From: an uncultured Clostridium sp.
Lineage (GTDB): Bacteria > Bacillota > Clostridia > TANB77 > CAG-508
Length of the DNA: 64,000 nucleotides
Direction of reading: 5' to 3'
Assembly (NCBI GenBank): GCA_946404215.1
Contig: CAMJCT010000001.1
Coordinates: 128,031 to 192,030 of the forward strand
Made by a program: the position numbers and the translations under genes. Numbering within the stretch: the stretch's first letter is position 1; the number at the start of each line of letters is the position of its first letter. The notes under the pieces are model-generated. The model saw nothing but the letters and a program-made list of their open reading frames with translations, ran no database searches and was not told the DNA's origin. Positions 1 through 63,928 of the stretch are shown in pieces.

Positions 1-2096
1 AGTTCCTTTTCTACAGAAACCTTCGCTTTTTGCATACAAGTATAAAAATTTTCATTTTTGTCAGCTAATCTTATTTGTATTAAATCATCATCTGAAAATC
101 CACCTATATTTGATCTTAATACTGCAACTAATGGTATATCTTGCATAGGATTATCTATTATTTTTAATAAGCTCATCAATGTCTGTATTTCTATGGAATT
201 TAAATATTCTTGTGAACTATCTGAAAATACTGGCATTTCCAATTTTGCTATTTCTTGTTCATATATTGGTGCTAAATTAGAAGTGGCTCTTAATAAAATA
301 ACTATATCTTTATATTGTACATCTCTATATTTATTTTCTTTTTTATCCCAAACTTGAAATTTACTTTCTAAAATTTTTTTTATCTTGTTTGCAACAAATT
401 TTGCTTCCAATTCAACATCTTCTATTCTCTCTGTATCCTCTTGTCTCTCCACTTCATCTATTGTTTCATATGTTTCATTATTTTCTATTTGTAAATTTGC
501 TACTTTTTCTAATTTACAAATTTCATCTGTCGGATCTAATACATAAATTTCTATTTTTGCATTTTGCTCTATTTCAGGATAATTAGCACCCAAATTCAAA
601 TATTCTTCCTGATTGTATTCAATATCTCCTAAAATATCACTCATTATATTTTCGAAAATTAAATTTGTAAAGTCTAATATGTTTTTTTTGCTTCTAAAAT
701 TTTTGAACAATTGTATTTTTAAATTATCATCACTCGTTTTATTCTTCTTTTTTCTATATGAAAAATATTTATTCAAAAATAATTCAGGCATAGCTTGTCT
801 AAACTTATAAATACTTTGTTTTACATCTCCTACCATAAATATATTATTTTCTTTAGATACGGCTGTTAGAATATATTCTTGGACTAAATTGCTGTCTTGA
901 TACTCGTCAATCGCAATTTCGGCATATTTATCTTGGTATTTCTTTGCAATCTCTGTAGTTTCAATGCTTCCATCTACATTATCTCTTAGAAGAATTTTTA
1001 GTGCGAAATGCTCTATATCATTAAAATCAACTATATTCCTCTCTTTCTTTATTTTAGAAAATTGTATATCAAATTCTAAAACTAGTTTTTCTAATTTTTT
1101 TAATATAGTGTACATATCATATATATCGCAATTGGCCTCTTCCGAATCACAAATCAAAATTCTTTCTATTACTTTATTTACCTTTTTCTTTACATCATCT
1201 CTGGTTTTTTTTGCAATATCTTTTACCTCAGATTCAATCTTTTGCCTTGGCCAAGTAATAAAATTAATGTTTCTAGCTATTTCATAACATCTATCCCAGT
1301 TGTTTAAATTCTTTTTTAAAAAACTTAGTTGCTCTATATCACTTCCTATAGTTTTCTGAAACTTATCTAATTCAGGATCATATGATAAATTTTCTTCAAT
1401 ACTTTCCAAAGTAGATATATCATCAATAAGTTCATCTTCCAATTCTTGAAGTAATACCTCTCCCCATATTGTAGAACTAAAATCATTTTTTAGCTTTGAT
1501 TCTAAATTAAACATTTCAATTTTTTCGTTAAGCCACTTTTCAGGGAATGGATTACTTTGTATATATGAATATATTTTTAATATTAAATCCTTTAAAGGAG
1601 TGTCATCCCTATAACTAGTATATATATTTATTAATCTGTTAAAGTCTTCATCTTCTGATTCATATTTTTGTTCAAAAATTTCTTCTATAACTTCTTGCTT
1701 TAGTAATTCTATTTCGGTATTATCTCCTATTCTAAAATTAGGAGATATATTATCAAGTTCAAAAAAATTATTCCTTACAACTTCTAAACAAAATGAATCT
1801 ATTGTACATATACTTGCCTTATTTAAGTAAGTAATTTGTCTTTGTAAATTCTCATCTTCAGGATTTTCATCTAACTTTTTATATATAGCATCTAAAACTC
1901 TCTCCCTCATTTCAGCTGCTGCAGCATTAGTAAAAGTCACTACAAGTAATTTATCTATATCAACCTTTTCATTTATAATTTTATTTATAATTCTCTCAAC
2001 TAATACAGCTGTTTTACCACTTCCTGCAGCCGCTGCAACTAATATATTTGAATCTTTTTCATAAATAGCATCTTTTTGTTCATCAGTCCAATCCAT
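1..2096 (-). CDS. addA: ATP-dependent helicase/nuclease subunit A (AddA), N-terminal ~700 aa. The 3' end lies beyond the window start.
   Basis: Reverse-strand translation from ATG at 2094-2096 reads MDWTDEQKDAIYEKDSNILVAAAAGSGKTAVLVERIINKI...VVTFTNAAAAEMRERV (Walker A plus UvrD/AddA signature). The reading frame is continuous to position 1. It is absent from the ORF track because it runs off the window. Confidence 0.85.
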   Translation of the reverse strand, partial: MDWTDEQKDAIYEKDSNILVAAAAGSGKTAVLVERIINKIINEKVDIDKLLVVTFTNAAAAEMRERVLDAIYKKLDENPEDENLQRQITYLNKASICTIDSFCLEVVRNNFFELDNISPNFRIGDNTEIELLKQEVIEEIFEQKYESEDEDFNRLINIYTSYRDDTPLKDLILKIYSYIQSNPFPEKWLNEKIEMFNLESKLKNDFSSTIWGEVLLQELEDELIDDISTLESIEENLSYDPELDKFQKTIGSDIEQLSFLKKNLNNWDRCYEIARNINFITWPRQKIESEVKDIAKKTRDDVKKKVNKVIERILICDSEEANCDIYDMYTILKKLEKLVLEFDIQFSKIKKERNIVDFNDIEHFALKILLRDNVDGSIETTEIAKKYQDKYAEIAIDEYQDSNLVQEYILTAVSKENNIFMVGDVKQSIYKFRQAMPELFLNKYFSYRKKKNKTSDDNLKIQLFKNFRSKKNILDFTNLIFENIMSDILGDIEYNQEEYLNLGANYPEIEQNAKIEIYVLDPTDEICKLEKVANLQIENNETYETIDEVERQEDTERIEDVELEAKFVANKIKKILESKFQVWDKKENKYRDVQYKDIVILLRATSNLAPIYEQEIAKLEMPVFSDSSQEYLNSIEIQTLMSLLKIIDNPMQDIPLVAVLRSNIGGFSDDDLIQIRLADKNENFYTCMQKAKVSVEKE

Positions 2097-2118
2097 TTTA
2101 TCTCCTTTCCTGCTTTTG

Positions 2119-2159
2119 AGTGTTTTGGGTGTTTTTGGGGACACCTTCCAAAAGCACCT
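2119..2159 (+). repeat. REP-like element (core TTTTGGGGACACCTTCCAAAAGCACC) at the 3' flank of the RAYT gene
   Basis: The GGGGACACC core is shared with copies at 3025, 3147, 37548, 37640, 48633, 48675, 52250, 52287 and 63885. It is oriented opposite to the two copies on the other side of the transposase gene. Confidence 0.7.
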
Positions 2160-2942
2160 TTATTTTATCTTTAGTTTTTGCATACTACCTCTTGAAATAT
2201 CAAAAAATTTACTAATTTCAGTATATTTCAATCTACAATTTTCTTTAAGAAATATTATTAGTTCTTTAAAAATCTCTCTATTTGATAATATTTCTACAGT
2301 ATTAAGGCAAAACTCTTTTTTAAATTCTCGGATTCCTTCTAAAATATAACTATTAATCGTCTCCTCATTTTCATATTCAGCATCCATAAATCTTTTATCA
2401 AAACTTTGCTCAAATAGATTTGCATAATCACAATTTTCTCCAAATATTTCCTTCATAATTTTATATCTTGTAGGTCCTTCATTTTTTATATAATCATTAT
2501 AAGATGAAAATTCATAGTCTTCACAATTTAAAACCATTTGTGCTTTTACTGGATTATTATGTATGTATTTTATACAATTAATCAAATGTTTTATATCATA
2601 AATAGGCTCACTTTTATACCTATTTCTAAATAAAACTCCACATCTGTTTTCTTTTTTATTATACATTTGCGCATATAATAAATTAATCCTTTGCATAAAT
2701 TTTCCAAACTTTTCTATATCTTTTGTGTATACTAAAAAATGAACATGATTATTCATTATACAATATGCTAAAATTTCTAAATTATAGTCTTTTTTATTTT
2801 CTCTAATAATTTCTAGATATTTTTTTATATACTCTTTCTTATAAAAAATGAATTCTTTGTTTACTCCTTGAACCATTACATGCAAAAATTGTGCTTTGAT
2901 ATTTTTTCTTGCTATTCTTGGTTTGTTAATCACTCCTAACAT
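2160..2942 (-). CDS. REP-associated tyrosine transposase (RAYT; IS200/IS605 TnpA-like HUH-Y1) with a C-terminal HTH-like extension
   Basis: 260-aa ORF carrying the HUH motif NNHVHFLV and YIHNNPV. The C-terminal ~90 aa look HTH-like (KYTEISKFFDISRGSM). It is flanked by REP copies in inverted orientation. Confidence 0.75.
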   Translation of the reverse strand: MLGVINKPRIARKNIKAQFLHVMVQGVNKEFIFYKKEYIKKYLEIIRENKKDYNLEILAYCIMNNHVHFLVYTKDIEKFGKFMQRINLLYAQMYNKKENRCGVLFRNRYKSEPIYDIKHLINCIKYIHNNPVKAQMVLNCEDYEFSSYNDYIKNEGPTRYKIMKEIFGENCDYANLFEQSFDKRFMDAEYENEETINSYILEGIREFKKEFCLNTVEILSNREIFKELIIFLKENCRLKYTEISKFFDISRGSMQKLKIK

Positions 2943-3024
2943 AATGGGAGTTTTGTAATATAATTTTACAAAACCCCCTCAAATTTATATATATTATACA
3001 CCTTTTTTTTATTTTTTCAAGATA

Positions 3025-3070
3025 TTTTTGGGTGTTTTTGAAAGGTGTCCCCAAAAACACCTAAAAAACA
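3025..3070 (-). repeat. REP-like element (GGTGTCCCC orientation), 5' flank of RAYT
   Basis: TTGGGTGTTTTTGAAAGGTGTCCCCAAAAACACC, an inverted copy of the 2119 element. Confidence 0.7.
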
Positions 3071-3146
3071 TTGAAATAAGAATTAAATAATGTTAAAATA
3101 TATTTATGATTTTTTATGACAATAAATAATATAAATACAATAACAA

Positions 3147-3182
3147 TGGTGCTTTTTTAATGTGTCCCCAAAAGCACCTAAA
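3147..3182 (-). repeat. REP-like element, second copy 5' of RAYT
   Basis: GGTGCTTTTTTAATGTGTCCCCAAAAGCACC. It overlaps the spurious N-terminal extension (MSPKAPKTEQ) of the ATPase ORF in the track. Confidence 0.7.
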
Positions 3183-3194
3183 ACGGAGCAAAAT

Positions 3195-5567
3195 ATGAAT
3201 GAAAATATAATAAGATATACACCTAAAATTGATAAAGGGTTAAATGATGAACAAATAGAAAAAAGAAAAGAAGAAAATTTGATAAATTTAGATACCTGTC
3301 CACCAACTAAAAGTATAAAACGAATTTTATATGAGAATTTTTTTACATTATTTAATATTTTAAATATAGTTTTAGCATTATTAGTTTTTAGTGTTGGCTC
3401 ACGAAAAAACATGCTTTTTTTATTAATAGTTACAATAAATACAGCAATAAGTACAGTACAAGAAATTCATTCCAAAAGAATAATAGATAAGCTTTCTCTT
3501 ATGTCTGTATCAAAAGCTAAAGTTATTAGAAATGGCATAAAAAAAGATGTTTCTATACATGAATTAGTTTTAGATGATATTATTGAATTAAATACAGGAA
3601 ATCAGGTTGTAACAGATAGTATAATTCAATCTGGAGAAGTGCTTGTAAATGAAGCTTTTATTACTGGAGAACCTGATAGTATATCTAAAAAAGCAGGTGA
3701 TACTATACTTTCAGGTAGTTTTATTGTTAGTGGAAGGTGTATTGCAAAAGTTGAGCATATTGGAGAAGATAATTACACTGCTAAAATCTCTAGTGGTAGT
3801 AAATATGTTAAAAAAATCTCTTCAGATATAATGTCATCTCTTTCAAAAGTTATTACATTTTTAACTTTTGCAATTATTCCTATAGGTTGTGCCCTTTTAT
3901 ATAGCCAATTAAACTTGCAAGGTATTAATTATAAAGATGCAGTTGTTCAAACTGTTGCAGCAATTATAGGTATGATACCAGAAGGGCTTGTGCTACTGAC
4001 TAGCACTGTTTTAGCTGTTAGTGTAATTAGACTTTCCAAATCTAAAGTATTAGTTCAAGAATTATATTGTATTGAAACCTTGGCAAGGGTTGACACCTTA
4101 TGTTTAGATAAGACTGGTACTCTTACAGAAGGCTCCATGGAAGTGAAGGATTATATTGCAATAAGTAAAGACAAAGATGAAGTTTCAAATATATTATCAA
4201 ATATAGCAAAAGTTTCAGAAGATGAAAATAGCACGATTGAAGCAATTAGAAGTTATTTTACAGATATAACTTCTGAATTCACACCAATTACAAAAGTCGC
4301 GTTTTCTTCTCAATCAAAATGGTCTGGTTACTCTTTTGAGAATAAGGGTTCTTATATAATAGGAGCTCCTGAATTTGTTTTAAAAGACAATTTTAGTGAA
4401 TATAAAAATACTATTAATAACTATACGGAAGACTTCCGTGTTTTGGTACTAGCACACTCTCCAAATAATTTTAAAGACAAAAACCTGCCACAAAATATCC
4501 AATTAATTGGATTAGTTCTTATTTTAGATAAGATTAGAAGCAAAGCTCGTACCACATTAAATTATTTTGATAAACAAGGTGTAGATATAAAAATAATTTC
4601 TGGAGATAATCCTGTTACTGTTTCCAAAATTGCAAAACAAGTTGGTGTAAAAAGTTTTGATTCATATATAGATATGTCAAGTTTAAAAGAAGAATGTTAC
4701 AATTTAAATGAAATAGTTTCTAAATATACAATTTTTGGTAGAGTATCACCTACTCAAAAAAAAGATTTAATAAGAGCCTTAAAATTTAATGGCAAAACAG
4801 TTGCTATGACTGGTGATGGTGTAAACGATGTTTTAGCACTAAAAGAATCAGATTGTAGTATTGCAATGGCAAATGGTAGTGATGCAGCTAAAAATGTATC
4901 TCAATTGGTTCTTTTAGATTCGAATTTTGCCTCTATGCCTAAAGTAGTTACTGAAGGAAGACGAACAATAAATAATATACAAAGGTCTGCATCATTATTT
5001 TTAGTAAAAACAATATATTCCTGTGTTCTTGCAGTATTTTTCTTATTCCTTGCCCAAGAGTTCCCTTTCATACCTATACAATTAAGCTTAATAAGCACTG
5101 CATGTATTGGAATACCATCATTTTTGCTAGCATTAGAGCCAAATAAAGAGAAAATTAAAGGTAATTTTTTAAAAAATGTTATATCTAAAGCTATGCCAAC
5201 AGCCATTACTGTTATAATGAATATTTTATATTTAACATTTTTAAGCAAATACAATTTAATAACTATTGACTGCTATCATAGTTTATGTGTGGTTTCTACT
5301 GGTGTTTGTGGTCTTACTTTATTATTCACACTTGCATTAAAAAGAAAAAGTGAAAAAATAAAATTGCCTTTCTCCATATATAGATTAACACTAGCAATTC
5401 TAATGACATTGTTATTCTTCTTGGAAATACACTTTTTAGGTTGGTTTTTTAATATAGTACCTTTACAACTAATTTGGGATAAAATTATAAGAATTGTTAT
5501 TGTTTCTGTTTTAAACTTTATAGTTTTAAATTTTGTATTTATGAAATTTTTGAAAATAGATAAATAA
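3195..5567 (+). CDS. Cation-transporting P-type ATPase (P2-type, Ca2+/Mg2+-like)
   Basis: DKTGTLT phosphorylation motif and TGDGVNDVLALKESD hinge. N-terminal cation-ATPase domain and multiple TM segments. The start was moved to ATG 3195, which follows a GGAG RBS; the track start at 3162 translates the REP. Confidence 0.85.
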   Translation: MNENIIRYTPKIDKGLNDEQIEKRKEENLINLDTCPPTKSIKRILYENFFTLFNILNIVLALLVFSVGSRKNMLFLLIVTINTAISTVQEIHSKRIIDKLSLMSVSKAKVIRNGIKKDVSIHELVLDDIIELNTGNQVVTDSIIQSGEVLVNEAFITGEPDSISKKAGDTILSGSFIVSGRCIAKVEHIGEDNYTAKISSGSKYVKKISSDIMSSLSKVITFLTFAIIPIGCALLYSQLNLQGINYKDAVVQTVAAIIGMIPEGLVLLTSTVLAVSVIRLSKSKVLVQELYCIETLARVDTLCLDKTGTLTEGSMEVKDYIAISKDKDEVSNILSNIAKVSEDENSTIEAIRSYFTDITSEFTPITKVAFSSQSKWSGYSFENKGSYIIGAPEFVLKDNFSEYKNTINNYTEDFRVLVLAHSPNNFKDKNLPQNIQLIGLVLILDKIRSKARTTLNYFDKQGVDIKIISGDNPVTVSKIAKQVGVKSFDSYIDMSSLKEECYNLNEIVSKYTIFGRVSPTQKKDLIRALKFNGKTVAMTGDGVNDVLALKESDCSIAMANGSDAAKNVSQLVLLDSNFASMPKVVTEGRRTINNIQRSASLFLVKTIYSCVLAVFFLFLAQEFPFIPIQLSLISTACIGIPSFLLALEPNKEKIKGNFLKNVISKAMPTAITVIMNILYLTFLSKYNLITIDCYHSLCVVSTGVCGLTLLFTLALKRKSEKIKLPFSIYRLTLAILMTLLFFLEIHFLGWFFNIVPLQLIWDKIIRIVIVSVLNFIVLNFVFMKFLKIDK

Positions 5568-24270: not shown

Positions 24271-24371
24271 TACTTCTACATGTAATTCTTCTTCCAGAAT
24301 TAACTTATACAGATATAACTAATCTCTTTTCACAGCTTGAGGTTAGTTCAAGAAAAGACGGAGCAATTTAT

Positions 24372-24644
24372 ATGCAACTTTCCATATATAATAATTATTA
24401 TTCTTTGGATGAATACCCTAAATTAGTAAAAATCTATGATACTATATATGAAAATTTTGGAACAAAACCAAAAATTACAAGAAATAGAATGCGTACTTCT
24501 TTACATCGTTTAAATAATTCTTATAATTTTAATGAACACACTATCTATACAAAAATATTTGGAGCAAGAACTCATGTTACTCCAAAAGAATTTATAGATT
24601 GTTGCACAGATTATTTTATTAGAGAAAAACATAGAGATAGTTAA
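24372..24644 (+). CDS. Hypothetical 89-aa protein
   Basis: A GACGGAG RBS lies 8 nt before the ATG. Sequence is MQLSIYNNYYSLDEYPKLVKIYDTIYENFGTKPKITRNRMRTSLHRLNN... There is no recognisable family. Confidence 0.35.
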   Translation: MQLSIYNNYYSLDEYPKLVKIYDTIYENFGTKPKITRNRMRTSLHRLNNSYNFNEHTIYTKIFGARTHVTPKEFIDCCTDYFIREKHRDS

Positions 24645-24661
24645 AAAAATACCTTACAAAG

Positions 24662-24898
24662 TTATTTACTCTGTAAGGTATTTTTCGCTATTCCTAAATC
24701 TAGTAATTGTAGTTCACTAAAAATTCTATCTATCTCTGAATTTTCAAAACCAATTTCATTTAAAAATTCTTTTTTTGTGTTTGATAATTGACCTAATGTC
24801 AAAATATCATTTTTCTTCATATTGTCTATTTTATTTTGACTCAAAAAATCTAATCTTTGTACTGATTGCTTGTAATATTTATTCTCCATTTTCTGCAT
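24662..24898 (-). CDS. Small protein resembling the RNA polymerase alpha-subunit C-terminal domain (alpha-CTD / HhH-like)
   Basis: 78 aa. LDFLSQNKIDNMKKNDILTLGQLSNTKKEFLNEIGFENSEIDRIFSELQLLDLGI matches the alpha-CTD pattern L..LS.R..N.L....I.TLG.L.....EL..I.N.G.KS..EI...L. It overlaps the upstream gene by 20 nt. Confidence 0.4.
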   Translation of the reverse strand: MQKMENKYYKQSVQRLDFLSQNKIDNMKKNDILTLGQLSNTKKEFLNEIGFENSEIDRIFSELQLLDLGIAKNTLQSK

Positions 24899-25157
24899 CT
24901 CCTCTTACTTTTATTGCTACCATATAATTATTAATTTCTACTATCTTTCGTTCTCCTTTATAACTAAATTTTGCACCAGTAAAACATACTTGATAATTTA
25001 AGTTTTCTAGTCTTGTTTTAGCATATTCTAAAAATATATCAACATCCTTTTTTGTAAGATTTTGCTTTACTCGTAAATCATAAACACTACATTCAATACA
25101 ATTTTCATTTTCTGCTATTTTATTATCTAAATAATCTGTTACAAATTGTATGGTCAT
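24879..25157 (-). CDS. Hypothetical 92-aa protein with a CxxC motif
   Basis: CIEC...C. It is translationally coupled to the alpha-CTD-like gene and lies immediately downstream of the AAA ATPase. Confidence 0.4.
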   Translation of the reverse strand: MTIQFVTDYLDNKIAENENCIECSVYDLRVKQNLTKKDVDIFLEYAKTRLENLNYQVCFTGAKFSYKGERKIVEINNYMVAIKVRGDAENGE

Positions 25158-25176
25158 TTCTTACACTCCTAAATAG

Positions 25177-26430
25177 TTAATAATTCAAACTTTCCATATC
25201 TAATAGAAAATCAAATATACTCATTGTTATTATACCTTCTTCATTTCTCCATCTTTTTATAAAATCCTTAACAATTATGATTTTTTTGAAAGAATCATTT
25301 ATTTTTAATAGAGGTCTTTCTTCCTGTTGTCTTTTTTCTTCATCTGGCATTGCAAATGCAGATTGAATATATATTTTATTACTTCCCTTATTAGCAATAA
25401 AGTCTATTTCCAGTTGTTTATAAGTTAATTTATCATTTTCTTTTGTCCTTTGTTCTACTACCCCAACATCTACTTGATATCCTCTTCTTTTTAACTCTAA
25501 ATAAATTGCATTTTCCATTATGTGTGTTTCTTCTTGTTGTCTAAAATTTATAAAAGAATTACGAAGTCCTAAATCGCTAAAATAATATTTTGATGGTGTA
25601 CTTATATATTTTCTTCCTTTTATATCATACCTTTCTGAATTTTCAATTAAAAATGCTTCTTCTAAATATTTTAAGTATGATGAAATTGTAGCAGGTGCAA
25701 CATCAATATCCAGTTCGCTTTTAAATGTATCAGATATTTTTTTCGGATTTGTCAATGATCCAATACTTGAAGAAATTATTTTTACCATTTGAGTTATTAC
25801 TGAACTTTCGTTGCTTATATTGTGTCTTTCAATAACATCATTTATATAAACATTTTGTTGTTGTTCTTTTAAATAAGCATCTTTTCTTTCATCATCTTTC
25901 ATTAAAACAACAAGTGGTAGCCCTCCATAAGTTATATATTCTGTCCATCCCTCCATTTTATCTCCATCATAAACAGACATAAATTCTGCAAAACTTAATG
26001 GATATACTCTTATTTCTTCTCCTCTACCTCTAAATTCTGTTATTATATCAGTTGAAAGAAATTTTGAGTTACTTCCTGTTACATATATATCAACATTTTG
26101 TATTCTTAATAAACCATTTAATACTGCCTCAAAATTCGGTGCTAATTGAACTTCGTCAATTATTATATAATATAGTTCTTTATCTTTAATTTTGCTTTTG
26201 ATATATTCAGATAGTTTTTTAGGTTGTAAAAATTCTATGTTTTCATCATCATCAACTGCAACTTTAATAATATGGTCTTCTTTTACTCCTGTTTCAATAA
26301 GATGTTTATAAAATAATTCGTTTAATAAATAAGATTTACCACATCTACGAATACCTGTTACTACTTTAATTAAGCCATCTTGTTTAGCTTTTATAAGTTT
26401 ATTTAAATAATAATCTCTTTTTATTTCCAT
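25177..26430 (-). CDS. AAA family ATPase (AAA_14 plus DUF4143-type ATP-binding protein)
   Basis: Walker A GIRRCGKSY and Walker B YIIIDEVQ, with the C-terminal domain typical of DUF4143 orphan ATPases. Confidence 0.7.
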   Translation of the reverse strand: MEIKRDYYLNKLIKAKQDGLIKVVTGIRRCGKSYLLNELFYKHLIETGVKEDHIIKVAVDDDENIEFLQPKKLSEYIKSKIKDKELYYIIIDEVQLAPNFEAVLNGLLRIQNVDIYVTGSNSKFLSTDIITEFRGRGEEIRVYPLSFAEFMSVYDGDKMEGWTEYITYGGLPLVVLMKDDERKDAYLKEQQQNVYINDVIERHNISNESSVITQMVKIISSSIGSLTNPKKISDTFKSELDIDVAPATISSYLKYLEEAFLIENSERYDIKGRKYISTPSKYYFSDLGLRNSFINFRQQEETHIMENAIYLELKRRGYQVDVGVVEQRTKENDKLTYKQLEIDFIANKGSNKIYIQSAFAMPDEEKRQQEERPLLKINDSFKKIIIVKDFIKRWRNEEGIITMSIFDFLLDMESLNY

Positions 26431-26602
26431 AAACTATCCTCCATTCTTTTATACTATTCTAACCTATTTTATTCATAATATCAATAGTTTTATCTAAAAA
26501 AAAATGTAAAATTACAGTTTTTTTTAGATGGACATATATTCAAAAAAATAAATTCAAATTATTATACAATAACTTGAATTTACTTTTTTAATTCTCTTTA
26601 AA

Positions 26603-27798
26603 TTACTTATAATCTTCAAATATACCTACTATTCTATCTTTATTTGGATTTGTTATTAAAGTATTCATTTTTATTCCTGCAATATTTACAAATTCTTTAT
26701 ATTCGTCATCTGGAATATCATTTCCTATAAGATTAAATACTGGTATTTTTGTATCTAATTGCTCTTTTGATTTTTTTATTATATCAAGTCCGTTCATATC
26801 TGCAAAGTTATAATTTGTAAATACCATTTCTGGCTGTAAATTAACTATTCCTTTATATGTGTCTGTTCCGTTATTTGTTACGCCAACAACATCAACATAT
26901 CCTAAACCTTTTATTGTATCTACAATTTCATTTCTTACTTTATCATCTTTATATGCTACTAATGTTCTAATCTTTTCAAATACTTTTTTAGCAGATGCTT
27001 TAATTGTTGTTCTATTCTTTAATAATTCTGTTATACTATCTTCTAAAACATTTCCTATACAAACATCTTCTCCGTTTTCTGTAACCATTATATTACCATT
27101 TGGCATAATTAGAAGATATTTGCTTTCCATATCTGGCTCTTCTCTAAATTCTACTTTACCAATATTAGATGCTGTTCCCATACATAAACATATAGTTTTT
27201 ATCATTTTAAATTCTGCTTTTGATATTTCAAATTCTTTTTCATTTAATTTTGCTGTTTCTCGAAGTGGTATAAATTTAAAAACTCTCCAAGCATTTATTC
27301 TATATTTTCCTAAATATTGTCCAAGTTCTTCAATAGCCTCTAAATTCAATCTATTTACAACAGTATTTATATTAACTTTTAAATCATATTCTCTTAATGC
27401 CTCTAATACCACACTTATATCTTTGACATGGTCATACCCTCTACCAAGTTTTTCATTTATATCATTATCAACTGCATCAATAGATAATGTTAAACTATCT
27501 ATATAGTTAAATATTTCTCTCATTTTAGAATTATTTGCAAGTAAAGAACCATTTGTTATAAGTTTGCATTTCATTCCTCTTTCACTAGCCATTTTTAAAA
27601 GTTCAAAAAAGTTTGGCTGTAATAATGCCTCTCCAGTGTAAATGTTATATTTTTTATTCCGTCTTCTGTAATTCTATCAAGTATTCTTTTATTGTCTTCA
27701 AAGTTTAGTTCATTGATACCTAAAAATCTATGACAATATCTGCATTGTTGATTACATCTTAAAGTTAAAAACCAACAAACTTCTCTATTTTCACTCAT
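26603..27798 (-). CDS. Radical SAM / SPASM-twitch enzyme fused to a C-terminal receiver-like (REC) domain, interrupted by a frameshift (~27635, not at CGG)
   Basis: N-terminus CWFLTLRCNQQCRYCH (CxxxCxxC). After ITFT the frame changes to GEALLQPNFFELLKMASERG... The SPASM/twitch cysteines are KTICLCMG...GEDVCIGN. The C-terminal ~115 aa run LVAYKDD...VFTNYNFADMNGLDII...IPVFNLIG...IAGIKMNTLITNP, which aligns to the CheY fold with the phospho-acceptor position occupied by Asn. Confidence 0.55.
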
Positions 27799-27990
27799 TA
27801 CAAAATCCTCTTTTCTAATTATTTTACATAATAATTATATATCCGTTTCCAATATTTGTCTATCATCAAAAAGTTAACTATCGTAAACCTAAAAAGACAT
27901 AGACCTTTTACGATCTATGTCTTAAAATATATTATATTATTTCATTTATTATTACTTCTTCAAGTAATCTTTTATAAATTGTTTATCCAT

Positions 27991-28347
27991 TATTGTAATT
28001 GCCCCCGCGTTTGAAGAATGGATTACTCGAATTGACGAAGTAGGCGTAGTAGTAGTCTAATCCCTAATAACCCCTAAAAGAACAGGGGCTAACCTAATAT
28101 TCAAAATGTTTGCCTCCAACTCTAGCAAGAGAACTTTCCCATTTACTGCAAAAGAAAAAGGGGCAAAGCCCCAAGGAAAGTCTCAAAGTGCTACGGGCAA
28201 AGCACCGCACGGAACGAAACGTCGCTGTAGCTAACACCACCGCTGCCGCCCGAAGAGAACACACCTGCGCCGGCTCCAACATCGAAACTGCCCCCGCGCC
28301 CGACAAACGGGCCACTCGCGTAGCAAAGGTGAGGGTAGTCTCCAAAC
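27991..28347. other. Compositionally anomalous GC-rich segment (~50-55% GC in a ~27% GC context)
   Basis: Covers the last ~50 codons of the prepilin/FGE gene (GGC CCG TTT GTC GGG CGC GGG GGC...) plus ~200 bp downstream, which contains two GC-stem hairpins (GGGGCAAAGCCCC; CCCCTAAAAGAACAGGGG). Overlapping ORFs 28094..28345(-) and 28110..28376(+) are composition artefacts. Confidence 0.8.
28148..28174 (-). terminator. GC-stem hairpin plus U-run immediately 3' of the prepilin/FGE gene
   Basis: Minus strand CCTTGGGGCTTTGCCCCTTTTTCTTTT. Confidence 0.6.
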
Positions 28348-63874: not shown

Positions 63875-63915
63875 TTTTGGGTGATTTTGGGGACACCTTA
63901 AAAAAACACCTAAAA
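63868..63915 (+). repeat. REP-like element at the 3' end of gatD
   Basis: GGGTGATTTTGGGTGATTTTGGGGACACCTTAAAAAAACACC. Confidence 0.65.
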
Positions 63916-63928
63916 AAAATTTAAAAAA

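What the first reader, a model, noticed from the sequence alone, without database searches (positions are those of the whole stretch)
24662..27798. Co-directional cluster: radical SAM/SPASM enzyme with a C-terminal pseudo-receiver (REC) domain, then AAA ATPase, CxxC small protein and alpha-CTD-like small protein
The rSAM protein has the peptide-maturase style N-terminus (CWFLTLRCNQQCRYCH) and SPASM/twitch cysteines. It then carries a ~115-aa C-terminal domain that aligns with the CheY fold (LVAYKDD / FADMNGLDII / IPVFNLIG / IKMNTLITNP) but has Asn at the phospho-acceptor position. I do not recognise an rSAM-REC fusion as a described architecture. Downstream in the same orientation are an orphan AAA_14/DUF4143 ATPase and two translationally coupled small genes, one with a Cys motif (a possible substrate peptide) and one alpha-CTD/HhH-like. 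The rSAM gene also carries a non-CGG frameshift, so the system may be decaying.
Basis: inference. Interest (0 to 1): 0.6.

Follow-up and report, generated by a model that had tools for sequence, protein, structure and literature searches.

The report
Broken viperin-like enzyme fused to pseudo-receiver
The radical SAM gene is not a peptide maturase but a frameshifted copy of a viperin-like antiviral-type enzyme fused to a phosphorylation-dead receiver domain, a conserved but undescribed architecture carried on mobile elements of uncultured gut Clostridia; the three downstream genes are unrelated passengers.

Summary
The rSAM–REC fusion is real; the four-gene system is not. The rSAM part (window 26603-27798, minus strand) is viperin-like: PADLOC pVip E=1.9e-47, and the best PDB sequence and fold matches are viperins. 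It has no conserved SPASM or twitch cysteines. The C-terminal 128 aa fold as a (βα)5 receiver (pLDDT 92; the top 50 PDB matches are all REC domains). The positions of D57, T87 and K109 are never D, T/S and only rarely K, so it is an aspartate-less pseudo-receiver. Full-length homologues (396-411 aa, at least 120 clusters at 90% identity) occur in uncultured gut and rumen Clostridia. They are flanked by a LysR gene upstream (30/30 loci) and a convergent Spo0A-like gene downstream (28/30). Sister loci encode the same REC as a separate gene, sometimes after a PfkB kinase. The AAA_14/DUF4143 gene (PADLOC candidate PDC-S01) and the two small genes lie in that position only in the two closest relatives. 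The small protein's Cys motif is not conserved. The window copy carries a frameshift in the GGE motif and an early stop. Its LysR gene is deleted and its Spo0A-like gene is truncated, yet dN/dS is 0.10, so the damage is recent or an assembly artefact. The family scores below NCBI's viperin cut-off and lacks three NTP-binding basic residues. Several lineages have lost the Fe-S cysteines.

The parts
27637..27798 (-). Viperin-like rSAM–REC gene, codons 1-54 (includes CNQQCRYC, the [4Fe-4S] motif, and the family-invariant Cys8)
   Evidence: 98% identical to L001 residues 1-54
27635..27636 (-). Frameshift site: 'ct' replaces 'ggt' (first Gly of the SAM-binding GGE motif)
   Evidence: DNA alignment with L001 and L012
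26990..27634 (-). Rest of the viperin-like core (GEALL… to the linker), read in the -1 frame
   Evidence: (PADLOC pVip, residues 7-262)
26606..26989 (-). Aspartate-less pseudo-receiver (REC-fold) domain, 128 aa
   Evidence: AF2 pLDDT 91.9 with (βα)5 topology; top 50 Foldseek PDB hits are all REC domains, TM 0.67-0.83; catalytic positions tabulated
26588..26605 (-). Premature TAA (26603-26605), then the 4 ancestral codons FKEN and the ancestral stop (26588-26590)
27834..27862 (-). Promoter-like site (TAGACA-17-TATAAT) upstream of the rSAM start; consensus match only
   Evidence: the number of sites in the region is no greater than in shuffles
27894..27923 (-). Terminator-like hairpin after the LysR remnant
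27951..28001 (-). Last 51 nt of the LysR-type regulator gene that precedes the rSAM–REC gene in all intact loci; the rest is deleted
   Evidence: blastn to L001 ends at L001 5327, inside LysR 4502-5377; LysR has no tblastn hit in the window
25177..26430 (-). AAA_14 + DUF4143 ATPase, intact; PADLOC defence candidate PDC-S01; a lineage-specific insertion and not part of the viperin module
   Evidence: (E=1.8e-118); dN/dS 0.02-0.04
24879..25157 (-). 92-aa small protein of unknown function. It recurs in the element, usually lying between the CHAP-domain gene and the pilin-like diversity-generating-retroelement (DGR) target gene in other loci. Its Cys residues are not conserved.
24662..24898 (-). 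75/78-aa small protein of unknown function, seen only in the window, L001 and L012
24294..24644 (+). 3' remnant (116 codons) of the convergent Spo0A-like regulator (REC-like domain + Spo0A_C-like domain, about 240 aa when intact)
   Evidence: tblastn to L001 h242 residues 127-242, 79% identity; Pfam annotations for intact copies

Best explanation
Window 24292-28001 is a 3.7-kb fragment of an integrative, probably conjugative, element of uncultured gut/rumen Clostridia.

Its main gene encodes a viperin-like radical SAM enzyme fused to an aspartate-less pseudo-receiver domain. In intact elements the gene sits in a fixed module: LysR regulator, then rSAM–REC, then a convergent Spo0A-like regulator.

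Inferred mechanism: like viperins, the enzyme uses SAM and a [4Fe-4S] cluster to abstract a ribose hydrogen and dehydrate a nucleotide or nucleoside. The product is a 3'-deoxy-3',4'-didehydro chain terminator that blocks transcription of incoming phage or rival elements. The REC-fold domain cannot be phosphorylated. I infer that it is a dedicated regulatory or partner-binding subunit, because sister loci encode it as a separate gene next to the enzyme. LysR would control expression.

In this window the module is disabled: there is a frameshift in the GGE motif, an early stop, LysR is deleted and the Spo0A-like gene is truncated.

The AAA_14/DUF4143 gene and the two small ORFs are an independent insertion. 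The AAA_14 gene is a single-gene defence candidate (PDC-S01).

Shown: domain identities, folds, conservation, synteny and the lesions. Inferred: the chemistry, the substrate, the defence role and the role of the REC domain.

The confidence of 0.55 is for the whole statement including the inferred function. The identity (viperin-like rSAM + pseudo-REC, and the other three genes being unrelated) I put at about 0.9.
For: Viperin identity.
- PADLOC pVip: E=1.9e-47 over residues 7-262.
- NCBIfam: viperin_w_prok is the top hit, 132-141 bits against 86-89 for the next family.
- Family profile against PDB sequences: viperins at 1e-26, next family (SkfB) at 4e-15.
- AF2 model (pLDDT 86): the top 13 Foldseek PDB hits are viperins, TM 0.75-0.84 normalised to the target.
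- The best plasmid hit is an NCBI-annotated viperin of Methanomethylovorans hollandica.

REC identity.
- Across 45 sequences the D57 position is K/E/N/S/Q/T, the T87 position is I/F/L, and the K109 position is mostly E/N/D (2 of 45 have K in the MAFFT register).

The family is real and the protein is conserved over its full length.
- At least 120 clusters at 90% identity, 396-411 aa.
- Six clusters at 50% identity with the full-length fused architecture.

Synteny.
- LysR directly upstream in 30/30 loci.
- Spo0A-like gene directly downstream in 28/30.
- AAA_14 directly downstream in 1/30.

The REC is a dedicated partner.
- Split pVip|REC loci (L038, L048).
- pVip|PfkB kinase|REC loci (L046, L047).
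- pVip–PfkB fusion|REC loci (L049, L052).
- All three stand-alone REC cluster representatives lie in this module.

Mobile and defence context.
- Serine recombinases, a PemK toxin, a sigma factor, a diversity-generating retroelement (DGR), a T4SS coupling protein, ToxN and restriction-modification genes lie nearby.

Lesions.
Against: - The whole clade scores 120-166 bits against NCBIfam viperin_w_prok, below the curated cut-off of 180.
- Three basic residues that I recall as triphosphate contacts in mouse viperin (the role is from memory) are K/R in the annotated archaeal viperin and in P0164. In the main fused group they are replaced: K120→N/x, K220→N and R245→A. N77 is an invariant Cys. The substrate may therefore not be an NTP.
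- The associated kinase is of the PfkB (sugar/nucleoside) type, not a nucleotide kinase.
- Four of the six fused cluster representatives at 50% identity lack CxxxCxxC and GGE. In those lineages the conserved function cannot be radical chemistry.
- Unfused relatives in Bacilli MAGs sit in a biosynthesis-like cluster.
- No activity has been tested for any member.
- dN/dS of the window copy is 0.10, the same as between intact copies (0.12). The frameshift could be an assembly error.
Confidence: 0.55

Rival explanations
1. Regulatory or sensor module. The viperin-fold domain binds, or in catalytic lineages makes, a nucleotide-like ligand. The pseudo-receiver relays this to the convergent Spo0A-like transcription factor, for instance by REC–REC pairing, to control element functions such as excision, transfer or immunity. 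The protein would not act as a stand-alone antiviral effector.
For: - The Spo0A-like gene is the most constant neighbour. It directly follows the fused gene in 28/30 loci, and it also lies next to or near the cysteine-less versions and the stand-alone REC genes.
- Four fused cluster representatives have lost CxxxCxxC and GGE yet remain full length. One of them (P0199) occurs on at least 24 contigs.
- The elements also encode single-domain REC proteins, and no histidine kinase is seen nearby.
Against: - Most members, including every fused protein in the 33 genome loci, keep all rSAM motifs. That scan was, however, seeded with the Cys motif.
- No interaction has been tested.
- Synteny with a regulator is also expected for an ordinary regulated effector.
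Confidence: 0.17
2. Secondary-metabolite enzyme. The clade makes a modified nucleoside, either an antibiotic or a signal, under LysR control, and is not a phage-defence effector.
For: - Unfused relatives (45-50% identity) in L054 and L063 lie in an 8-kb co-directional cluster led by LysR. It encodes HAD, kinase-like, MBL, U32, DAHP-synthase-like, two methyltransferase, cytidine-deaminase-like and CYTH proteins (most of these names are by eye).
- PfkB kinase fusions occur.
- The triphosphate-binding basic residues are lost.
Against: - The fused subfamily has none of these tailoring genes.
- It sits on mobile elements beside toxins, restriction-modification genes, ToxN and PDC-S01.
- PADLOC's pVip models are the best match.
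Confidence: 0.2
3. One reading: a SPASM/twitch peptide-modifying rSAM acts with an ATPase on a small Cys-containing precursor peptide, forming a four-gene RiPP-like system.
For: Generic rSAM similarity to SPASM maturases (NCBIfam StsB 73 bits, SkfB in PDB at 4e-15); a weak Pfam SPASM hit at E=0.07.
Against: - Viperin models score far higher.
- There are no conserved auxiliary-cluster cysteines.
- The small protein's cysteines are Tyr in 90%-identical homologues.
- The four genes co-occur only in the window, L001 and L012.
Confidence: 0.02
4. The gene is intact in the organism, and the frameshift at 27635-27636 is an assembly or consensus error.
For: - dN/dS against intact homologues is 0.10, with no sign of relaxed constraint.
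- The change (GG→C) is an odd combined substitution and deletion.
- At least one other gene of the element is also split by a frameshift.
Against: - The site is not a homopolymer.
- Independent lesions hit the same module: a nonsense codon, deletion of LysR together with about 5 kb, and truncation of the Spo0A-like gene. These are large differences that cannot be base-calling errors.
- Other loci also show disrupted copies (L074, L077).
Confidence: 0.3

Closest known systems
Prokaryotic viperins (pVips; Bernheim et al. 2021, cited from memory) and eukaryotic viperin/RSAD2
   Same: - The fold is the same: a partial (βα)6 barrel with a C-terminal extension, TM 0.75-0.84 to 6Q2P, 5VSL and 9DFN.
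- CxxxCxxC and GGE are present, as are the N222 and K247 equivalents and the 'W(K/R)xF' motif.
- Viperin models are the best HMM match in PADLOC, NCBIfam and PDB.
- The genes lie on mobile elements and in defence islands, and some are linked or fused to a kinase.
   Different: - Scores fall below NCBI's equivalog cut-off.
- The K120, K220 and R245 equivalents are not basic, and N77 is a Cys.
- The family has its own signature, FKFxPLRExA.
- The partner kinase is PfkB-type.
- There is an obligatory pseudo-receiver partner, fused or adjacent.
- Neighbours are LysR and a Spo0A-like gene.
- Some lineages lack the Fe-S cysteines.
- The fusions reported for viperins (kinase, E3 ligase, triphosphatase/cyclase, RT; Shomar et al. 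preprint 10.1101/2023.09.13.557418) do not include REC.
Bacterial pseudo-receiver / aspartate-less receiver domains (review PMC12632262)
   Same: A (βα)5 CheY fold is detected by receiver profiles, but D, T and K of the catalytic quintet are missing.
   Different: The domain is attached to the C-terminus of a radical SAM enzyme rather than to a DNA-binding or signalling output. It forms its own subfamily that occurs only inside this module.
Ophion OpnA and other viperin-related rSAM defence enzymes (preprint 10.1101/2025.09.30.679545)
   Same: An rSAM related to but distinct from canonical pVips, in a defence context with accessory nucleotide-metabolism genes.
   Different: Ophion pairs the rSAM with PHP and PRTase proteins in Pseudomonas and has no REC, LysR or Spo0A-like partner. 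Sequence relatedness to OpnA was not tested here.
PADLOC PDC-S01 (AAA_14 + DUF4143 ATPase)
   Same: The window protein at 25177-26430 matches model PDLC04787 end to end (E=1.8e-118).
   Different: This is only a computational defence candidate. It is not functionally linked to the rSAM–REC gene.

Membership tests
Radical SAM superfamily | CxxxCxxC [4Fe-4S] motif | tested here: met
   CNQQCRYC at residues 15-22. It is invariant in 33 homologues but absent from P0134, P0199, P0209 and P0124.
Radical SAM superfamily | GGE SAM-binding motif in one reading frame | tested here: not met
   The window has 'ct' where homologues have 'ggt', which breaks the frame inside GGE. Homologues have an intact TGGE.
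Viperin (ddh-nucleotide synthase) | Best match to viperin-specific profiles | tested here: met
   PADLOC pVip E=1.9e-47; PDB viperins at 1e-26 against 4e-15 for the next family.
Viperin (ddh-nucleotide synthase) | Score above the NCBIfam NF038283 equivalog cut-off (180 bits) | tested here: not met
   131.8 bits for the corrected window protein and 120-166 bits for ten relatives.
Viperin (ddh-nucleotide synthase) | Viperin fold (partial barrel plus C-terminal extension) | tested here: met
   AF2 model pLDDT 86; the top 13 Foldseek PDB hits are viperins, TM 0.75-0.84 normalised to the target.
Viperin (ddh-nucleotide synthase) | Nucleotide-pocket residues (mouse N77, K120, K220, N222, R245, K247) | tested here: not met
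   The N222 and K247 equivalents are kept. N77→C, K120→N/x, K220→N (K/R in some relatives) and R245→A. The annotated M. hollandica viperin and P0164 keep the basic residues. Pocket roles are partly from memory and partly from PMC11970327 and 10.1101/2023.09.13.557418.
Viperin (ddh-nucleotide synthase) | Produces 3'-deoxy-3',4'-didehydro nucleotides; protects against phage | not testable with these tools
   Needs biochemistry and phage assays.
SPASM/twitch peptide maturase | Conserved auxiliary-cluster cysteines after the rSAM core | tested here: not met
   There are no invariant Cys beyond C8, C15, C19 and C22. Pfam SPASM scores 13.8 bits against 21.5.
SPASM/twitch peptide maturase | Linked precursor peptide gene | tested here: not met
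   The Cys residues of the 92-aa ORF are not conserved. Elsewhere the ORF is unlinked to the rSAM gene.
Response-regulator receiver (REC) | (βα)5 CheY fold and homology to REC | tested here: met
   pLDDT 91.9 with β1α1…β5α5 topology; the top 50 PDB fold hits are all REC domains; the family profile hits CheB, CheY, VraR and Spo0A REC domains at 1e-7 to 1e-5. Pfam PF00072 scores only 20.2 bits against 30.2 for the window protein.
Response-regulator receiver (REC) | Catalytic quintet DD, D, T/S, K | tested here: not met
   In 45 sequences the D57 position is K/E/N/S/Q/T, the T87 position is I/F/L and the K109 position is mostly E/N/D (2 of 45 are K). The acidic pair is displaced by two residues. 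By the definition in PMC12632262 this is a pseudo-receiver (aspartate-less receiver).
PADLOC PDC-S01 | Full-length match to the AAA_14–DUF4143 model | tested here: met
   E=1.8e-118, residues 3-411 on model positions 11-408 of 412; Pfam AAA_14 at 1.9e-32 and DUF4143 at 6e-16.
RNA polymerase alpha-CTD / HhH (78-aa ORF) | Significant sequence match | tested here: not met
   There are only sub-threshold SAM-domain-like Pfam hits (E≥0.01) and PDB hits with E>0.2. The fold was not predicted.

The most novel reading that the evidence does not exclude
The viperin-like domain and its pseudo-receiver, together with the convergent Spo0A-like regulator, form a previously unrecognised signalling module of clostridial integrative elements. 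In this module a viperin scaffold senses or produces a nucleotide cue, and it has repeatedly become a cysteine-less pseudoenzyme. The aspartate-less receiver transmits the signal without phosphorylation. This would be the first regulatory use of the viperin fold and a tractable model for how pseudo-receivers work.
Probability: 0.15. Interest if true: 0.8.

Novelty: new variant of a known kind. Interest (0 to 1): 0.55.

Why it matters
How prokaryotic viperins are switched on is unknown, and so is how bacterial pseudo-receivers signal without phosphorylation. This family couples the two in one polypeptide or in adjacent genes, always beside the same two regulators. Natural variants exist that are split, kinase-fused or catalytically dead. 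That provides ready-made genetic contrasts for testing regulation, substrate choice (the usual triphosphate-binding residues are missing) and possible non-catalytic roles of a viperin scaffold. The window's own copy is a damaged remnant. The value lies in the family it points to.

Tried and rejected
- RiPP/SPASM reading: rejected.
- Four-gene operon: rejected by synteny.
- Flavodoxin-like electron-donor domain: considered because of the shared fold class. There is no T/SxTGxT-type FMN loop after β1, and every fold hit is a REC domain rather than a flavodoxin. I did not take it further.
- REC-only word-index protein search: it returned only 9 fragments and was uninformative. The exhaustive profile search and context look-ups answered the question instead.
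- Rfam and tRNA scans of the window: nothing in the region.
- Search for a DGR (diversity-generating retroelement) template repeat in the window: none found.
- Phage and plasmid collections: no close homologue of the fused protein.
- Bernheim et al. 2021 could not be retrieved, so placement within their pVip clades is untested.
- Literature searches for a viperin–receiver, viperin–CheY or viperin–LysR link found nothing relevant.
Full report
**What is in the window.**
On the minus strand there are five ORFs: 27595-27798 (67 aa), 26603-27592 (329 aa), 25177-26430 (417 aa), 24879-25157 (92 aa) and 24662-24898 (78 aa). The first two are one gene broken by a frameshift. Frame 0 reads …GIKNITFT. 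The -1 frame continues GEALLQPNFF…. DNA alignment with two 91-94% identical homologues (L001 and L012) shows 'aca ct gga gag' in the window against 'aca ggt gga gag' in both. This is a GG→C change inside the first Gly codon of the SAM-binding GGE motif, at 27635-27636. The same alignment shows a GAA→TAA nonsense codon five codons before the ancestral stop.

**The enzyme is viperin-like, not a SPASM maturase.**
- PADLOC's pVip models match the corrected protein at E=1.9e-47 over residues 7-262.
- The top NCBIfam hit is 'viperin family antiviral radical SAM protein' at 131.8 bits, against 86 for the next family.
- A profile of 33 homologues finds solved viperins (9DFN, 5VSL, 6Q2P, 6B4C, 7N7H/I) at 1e-26 to 1e-23. 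SkfB follows at 4e-15 and MoaA at 2e-13.
- An AlphaFold2 model of the intact 94%-identical homologue P0001 (pLDDT 86) has viperins as its top 13 Foldseek PDB matches, with TM 0.75-0.84 normalised to the target.
- The only invariant cysteines are C8, C15, C19 and C22. The window's extra cysteines ('CLC', 'VCIG') are absent from homologues, and Pfam SPASM is sub-threshold.

**The C-terminal domain is a pseudo-receiver.**
- The last 128 residues, modelled alone with the family alignment, give pLDDT 91.9 and β1α1β2α2β3α3β4α4β5α5 topology.
- All 50 best PDB fold matches are receiver domains (NarL, DesR, CheY, CheB, Spo0A, VraR; TM 0.67-0.83).
- The family profile also hits receiver sequences at 1e-7 to 1e-5.
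- I aligned 45 family sequences (fused and stand-alone) with CheY and Spo0F. The acidic pair is displaced by two residues.
- By the definition in PMC12632262, this is an aspartate-less pseudo-receiver.

**The family.**
Full-length homologues of 396-411 aa fill the top 120 clusters of the protein search, and many carry a precomputed PF00072 hit. An exhaustive HMMER search of 1.84 billion representatives returns six fused clusters at 50% identity. It also returns stand-alone REC proteins of about 133 aa, fusions of about 550 aa to a kinase, and many unfused relatives of 250-290 aa. Genome hits are all uncultured gut or rumen Clostridia or Bacilli MAGs. The closest is a roe-deer omasum MAG at 94% identity.

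**Conserved neighbours, and what the other three genes are.**
I ran tblastn of element proteins against 78 genome loci and counted ORFs.
- A LysR-type regulator lies directly upstream on the same strand in 30/30 fused loci with enough flank.
- A protein of about 240 aa with a REC-like and a Spo0A_C-like domain lies directly downstream on the opposite strand in 28/30.
- The AAA_14 gene is directly downstream in 1/30, which is L012 (gene tables).
- Other AAA_14 homologues (L031, L057) stand alone.
- Homologues of the 92-aa ORF lie elsewhere in the element, between a CHAP-domain gene and a pilin-like gene.
- The AAA_14/DUF4143 protein matches PADLOC candidate PDC-S01 end to end at E=1.8e-118.
- The 92-aa protein's CxxC reads YIEC in both close homologues.
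- The 78-aa protein has no significant Pfam or PDB match.

The 'four-gene system' is therefore an insertion of unrelated cargo between the rSAM–REC gene and its usual neighbour.

**The REC is a dedicated partner.**
Sister loci show every intermediate arrangement:
- pVip-like (256 aa) followed by a separate 127-aa REC gene (L038, L048);
- pVip-like, then PfkB kinase, then REC (L046, L047; PfkB confirmed by Pfam at 8e-21);
- a pVip–PfkB fusion of 548-550 aa followed by REC (L049, L052).

All three stand-alone REC cluster representatives lie directly after this kinase, and where flank is available (L046, L047, L049, L097) a convergent Spo0A-like gene follows.

**Element context.**
The module sits in an element that carries:
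- a diversity-generating retroelement, DGR (RT, bAvd, a MutS_I-domain protein, and a VR/TR pair in L018);
- single-domain REC proteins;
- a sigma factor;
- a PemK toxin;
- large serine recombinases or integrases;
- in some versions a T4SS coupling protein, ToxN or restriction-modification genes.

No phage or plasmid record holds a close homologue.

**State of the window copy.**
The window shares only 24292-28001 with L001 (91.6% identity).
- LysR is reduced to its last 51 nt.
- About 5.3 kb present in L001 is missing (RT, bAvd, MutS_I-domain protein, an RHH-like protein, REC, HTH, LysR).
- The Spo0A-like gene keeps only its last 116 codons.
- Against this, dN/dS between the window gene and intact homologues is 0.10, the same as between the intact pair at 0.12.

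The point lesions are therefore recent, or the frameshift is an assembly error. The deletions cannot be base-calling errors.

**Limits on calling it a viperin.**
- Ten clade members score 120-166 bits against NCBI's viperin model, whose cut-off is 180.
- HMM alignment to mouse viperin (chain index +44) and a MAFFT alignment with an NCBI-annotated archaeal viperin show the following. N222 and K247 are kept. N77 is an invariant Cys, K120 is N or variable, K220 is N in the main fused group, and R245 is Ala. The archaeal viperin and the near-canonical P0164 keep the basic residues.
- The family has its own invariant FKFxPLRExA signature.
- Together with the PfkB-type kinase, this suggests that the substrate may differ in phosphorylation state.
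- Four fused representatives (P0134, P0199, P0209, P0124) have lost CxxxCxxC and GGE altogether. They keep full length and the REC domain, and still have a Spo0A-like gene nearby (adjacent for P0134 and P0124, about 5 kb away for P0199).
- Unfused relatives in Bacilli MAGs sit in a LysR-led cluster that looks biosynthetic.

**Literature.**
Searches for viperin or pVip together with receiver, response regulator, CheY, REC or LysR found no description of this fusion. The survey of viperin fusions by Shomar et al. lists kinase, E3 ligase, triphosphatase/cyclase and RT domains, and only in eukaryotes. Bernheim et al. 2021 was not available.

**Verdict.**
This is a real, conserved and apparently undescribed architecture: a viperin-like rSAM with an aspartate-less receiver. 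The copy in this window is disabled.

The most likely function is a regulated viperin-type nucleotide-analogue synthase that protects the mobile element's host. I am confident of the identity and only moderately confident of the function. A regulatory or pseudoenzyme role and a secondary-metabolite role remain open.

Noticed in passing
window 28191-30201 (minus strand); L018 4515-4654 and 4782-4921: A pilin-like protein (type IV pilin N-terminus at 30019-30186) with a weak FGE-sulfatase/C-type-lectin-like C-terminus and a GC-rich 3' end (28191-28345) looks like the target of a diversity-generating retroelement (DGR). Sister elements carry RT, bAvd, a MutS_I-domain protein and a clear VR/TR pair (89% over 140 nt in L018). 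The window has no template repeat and no RT.
   Followed up: partly
window 30020-30050 (minus strand): The pilin-like target gene is split. Reading 'tca CGG att aga' with a +1 shift at the CGG codon (30037-30039) restores the frame (…ISGLEEQANLAYLSG…). This could be recoding at a rare codon or another lesion.
   Followed up: no
window 2095-2167, 3013-3219, 37544-37703, 52242-52282, 63875-63928: A dispersed intergenic repeat of about 40-70 nt with a hairpin core (GGGTGnTTTTGGGGACACCTT…AAAAnCACC) occurs in both orientations, at least six copies.
   Followed up: no
window 16861-17093 (minus strand): T-box leader (Rfam RF00230, 114.7 bits) upstream of the 892-aa ORF at 14041-16719.
   Followed up: no
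L054 2665-12735; L063 3863-11817: Unfused relatives of the viperin-like enzyme in Bacilli-type MAGs lie in a co-directional cluster led by LysR. It encodes HAD-like, dNMP-kinase-like, MBL-fold, GreA-like, U32-peptidase-like, DAHP-synthase-like, two methyltransferase-like, cytidine-deaminase-like and CYTH-like proteins (names by eye). It may be a modified-nucleoside pathway.
   Followed up: partly
P0134 (L090), P0199 (L091-L093), P0124 (L094), P0209: Full-length rSAM–REC homologues have lost the CxxxCxxC and GGE motifs and are apparent pseudoenzymes. They still have Spo0A-like genes nearby (adjacent for P0134 and P0124, about 5 kb away for P0199) and sit in elements with restriction-modification genes or a T4SS coupling protein. 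The context of P0209 was not examined.
   Followed up: partly
L046 9315-9851: A ToxN type III toxin gene (Pfam E=5e-44) lies between LysR and the unfused viperin-like gene.
   Followed up: no
window 53576-56056 (minus strand): Two adjacent paralogous genes (396 and 409 aa) are 71-75% identical at the DNA level over most of their length, with a 1251-nt spacing between repeat copies.
   Followed up: no
window 30589-30924 (plus strand): An RHH-like 111-aa gene homologous to an element backbone gene (30-38% identity to L001, L002 and L007 copies) sits on the opposite strand and in a different position from intact elements. This indicates rearrangement of the element in this genome.
   Followed up: partly
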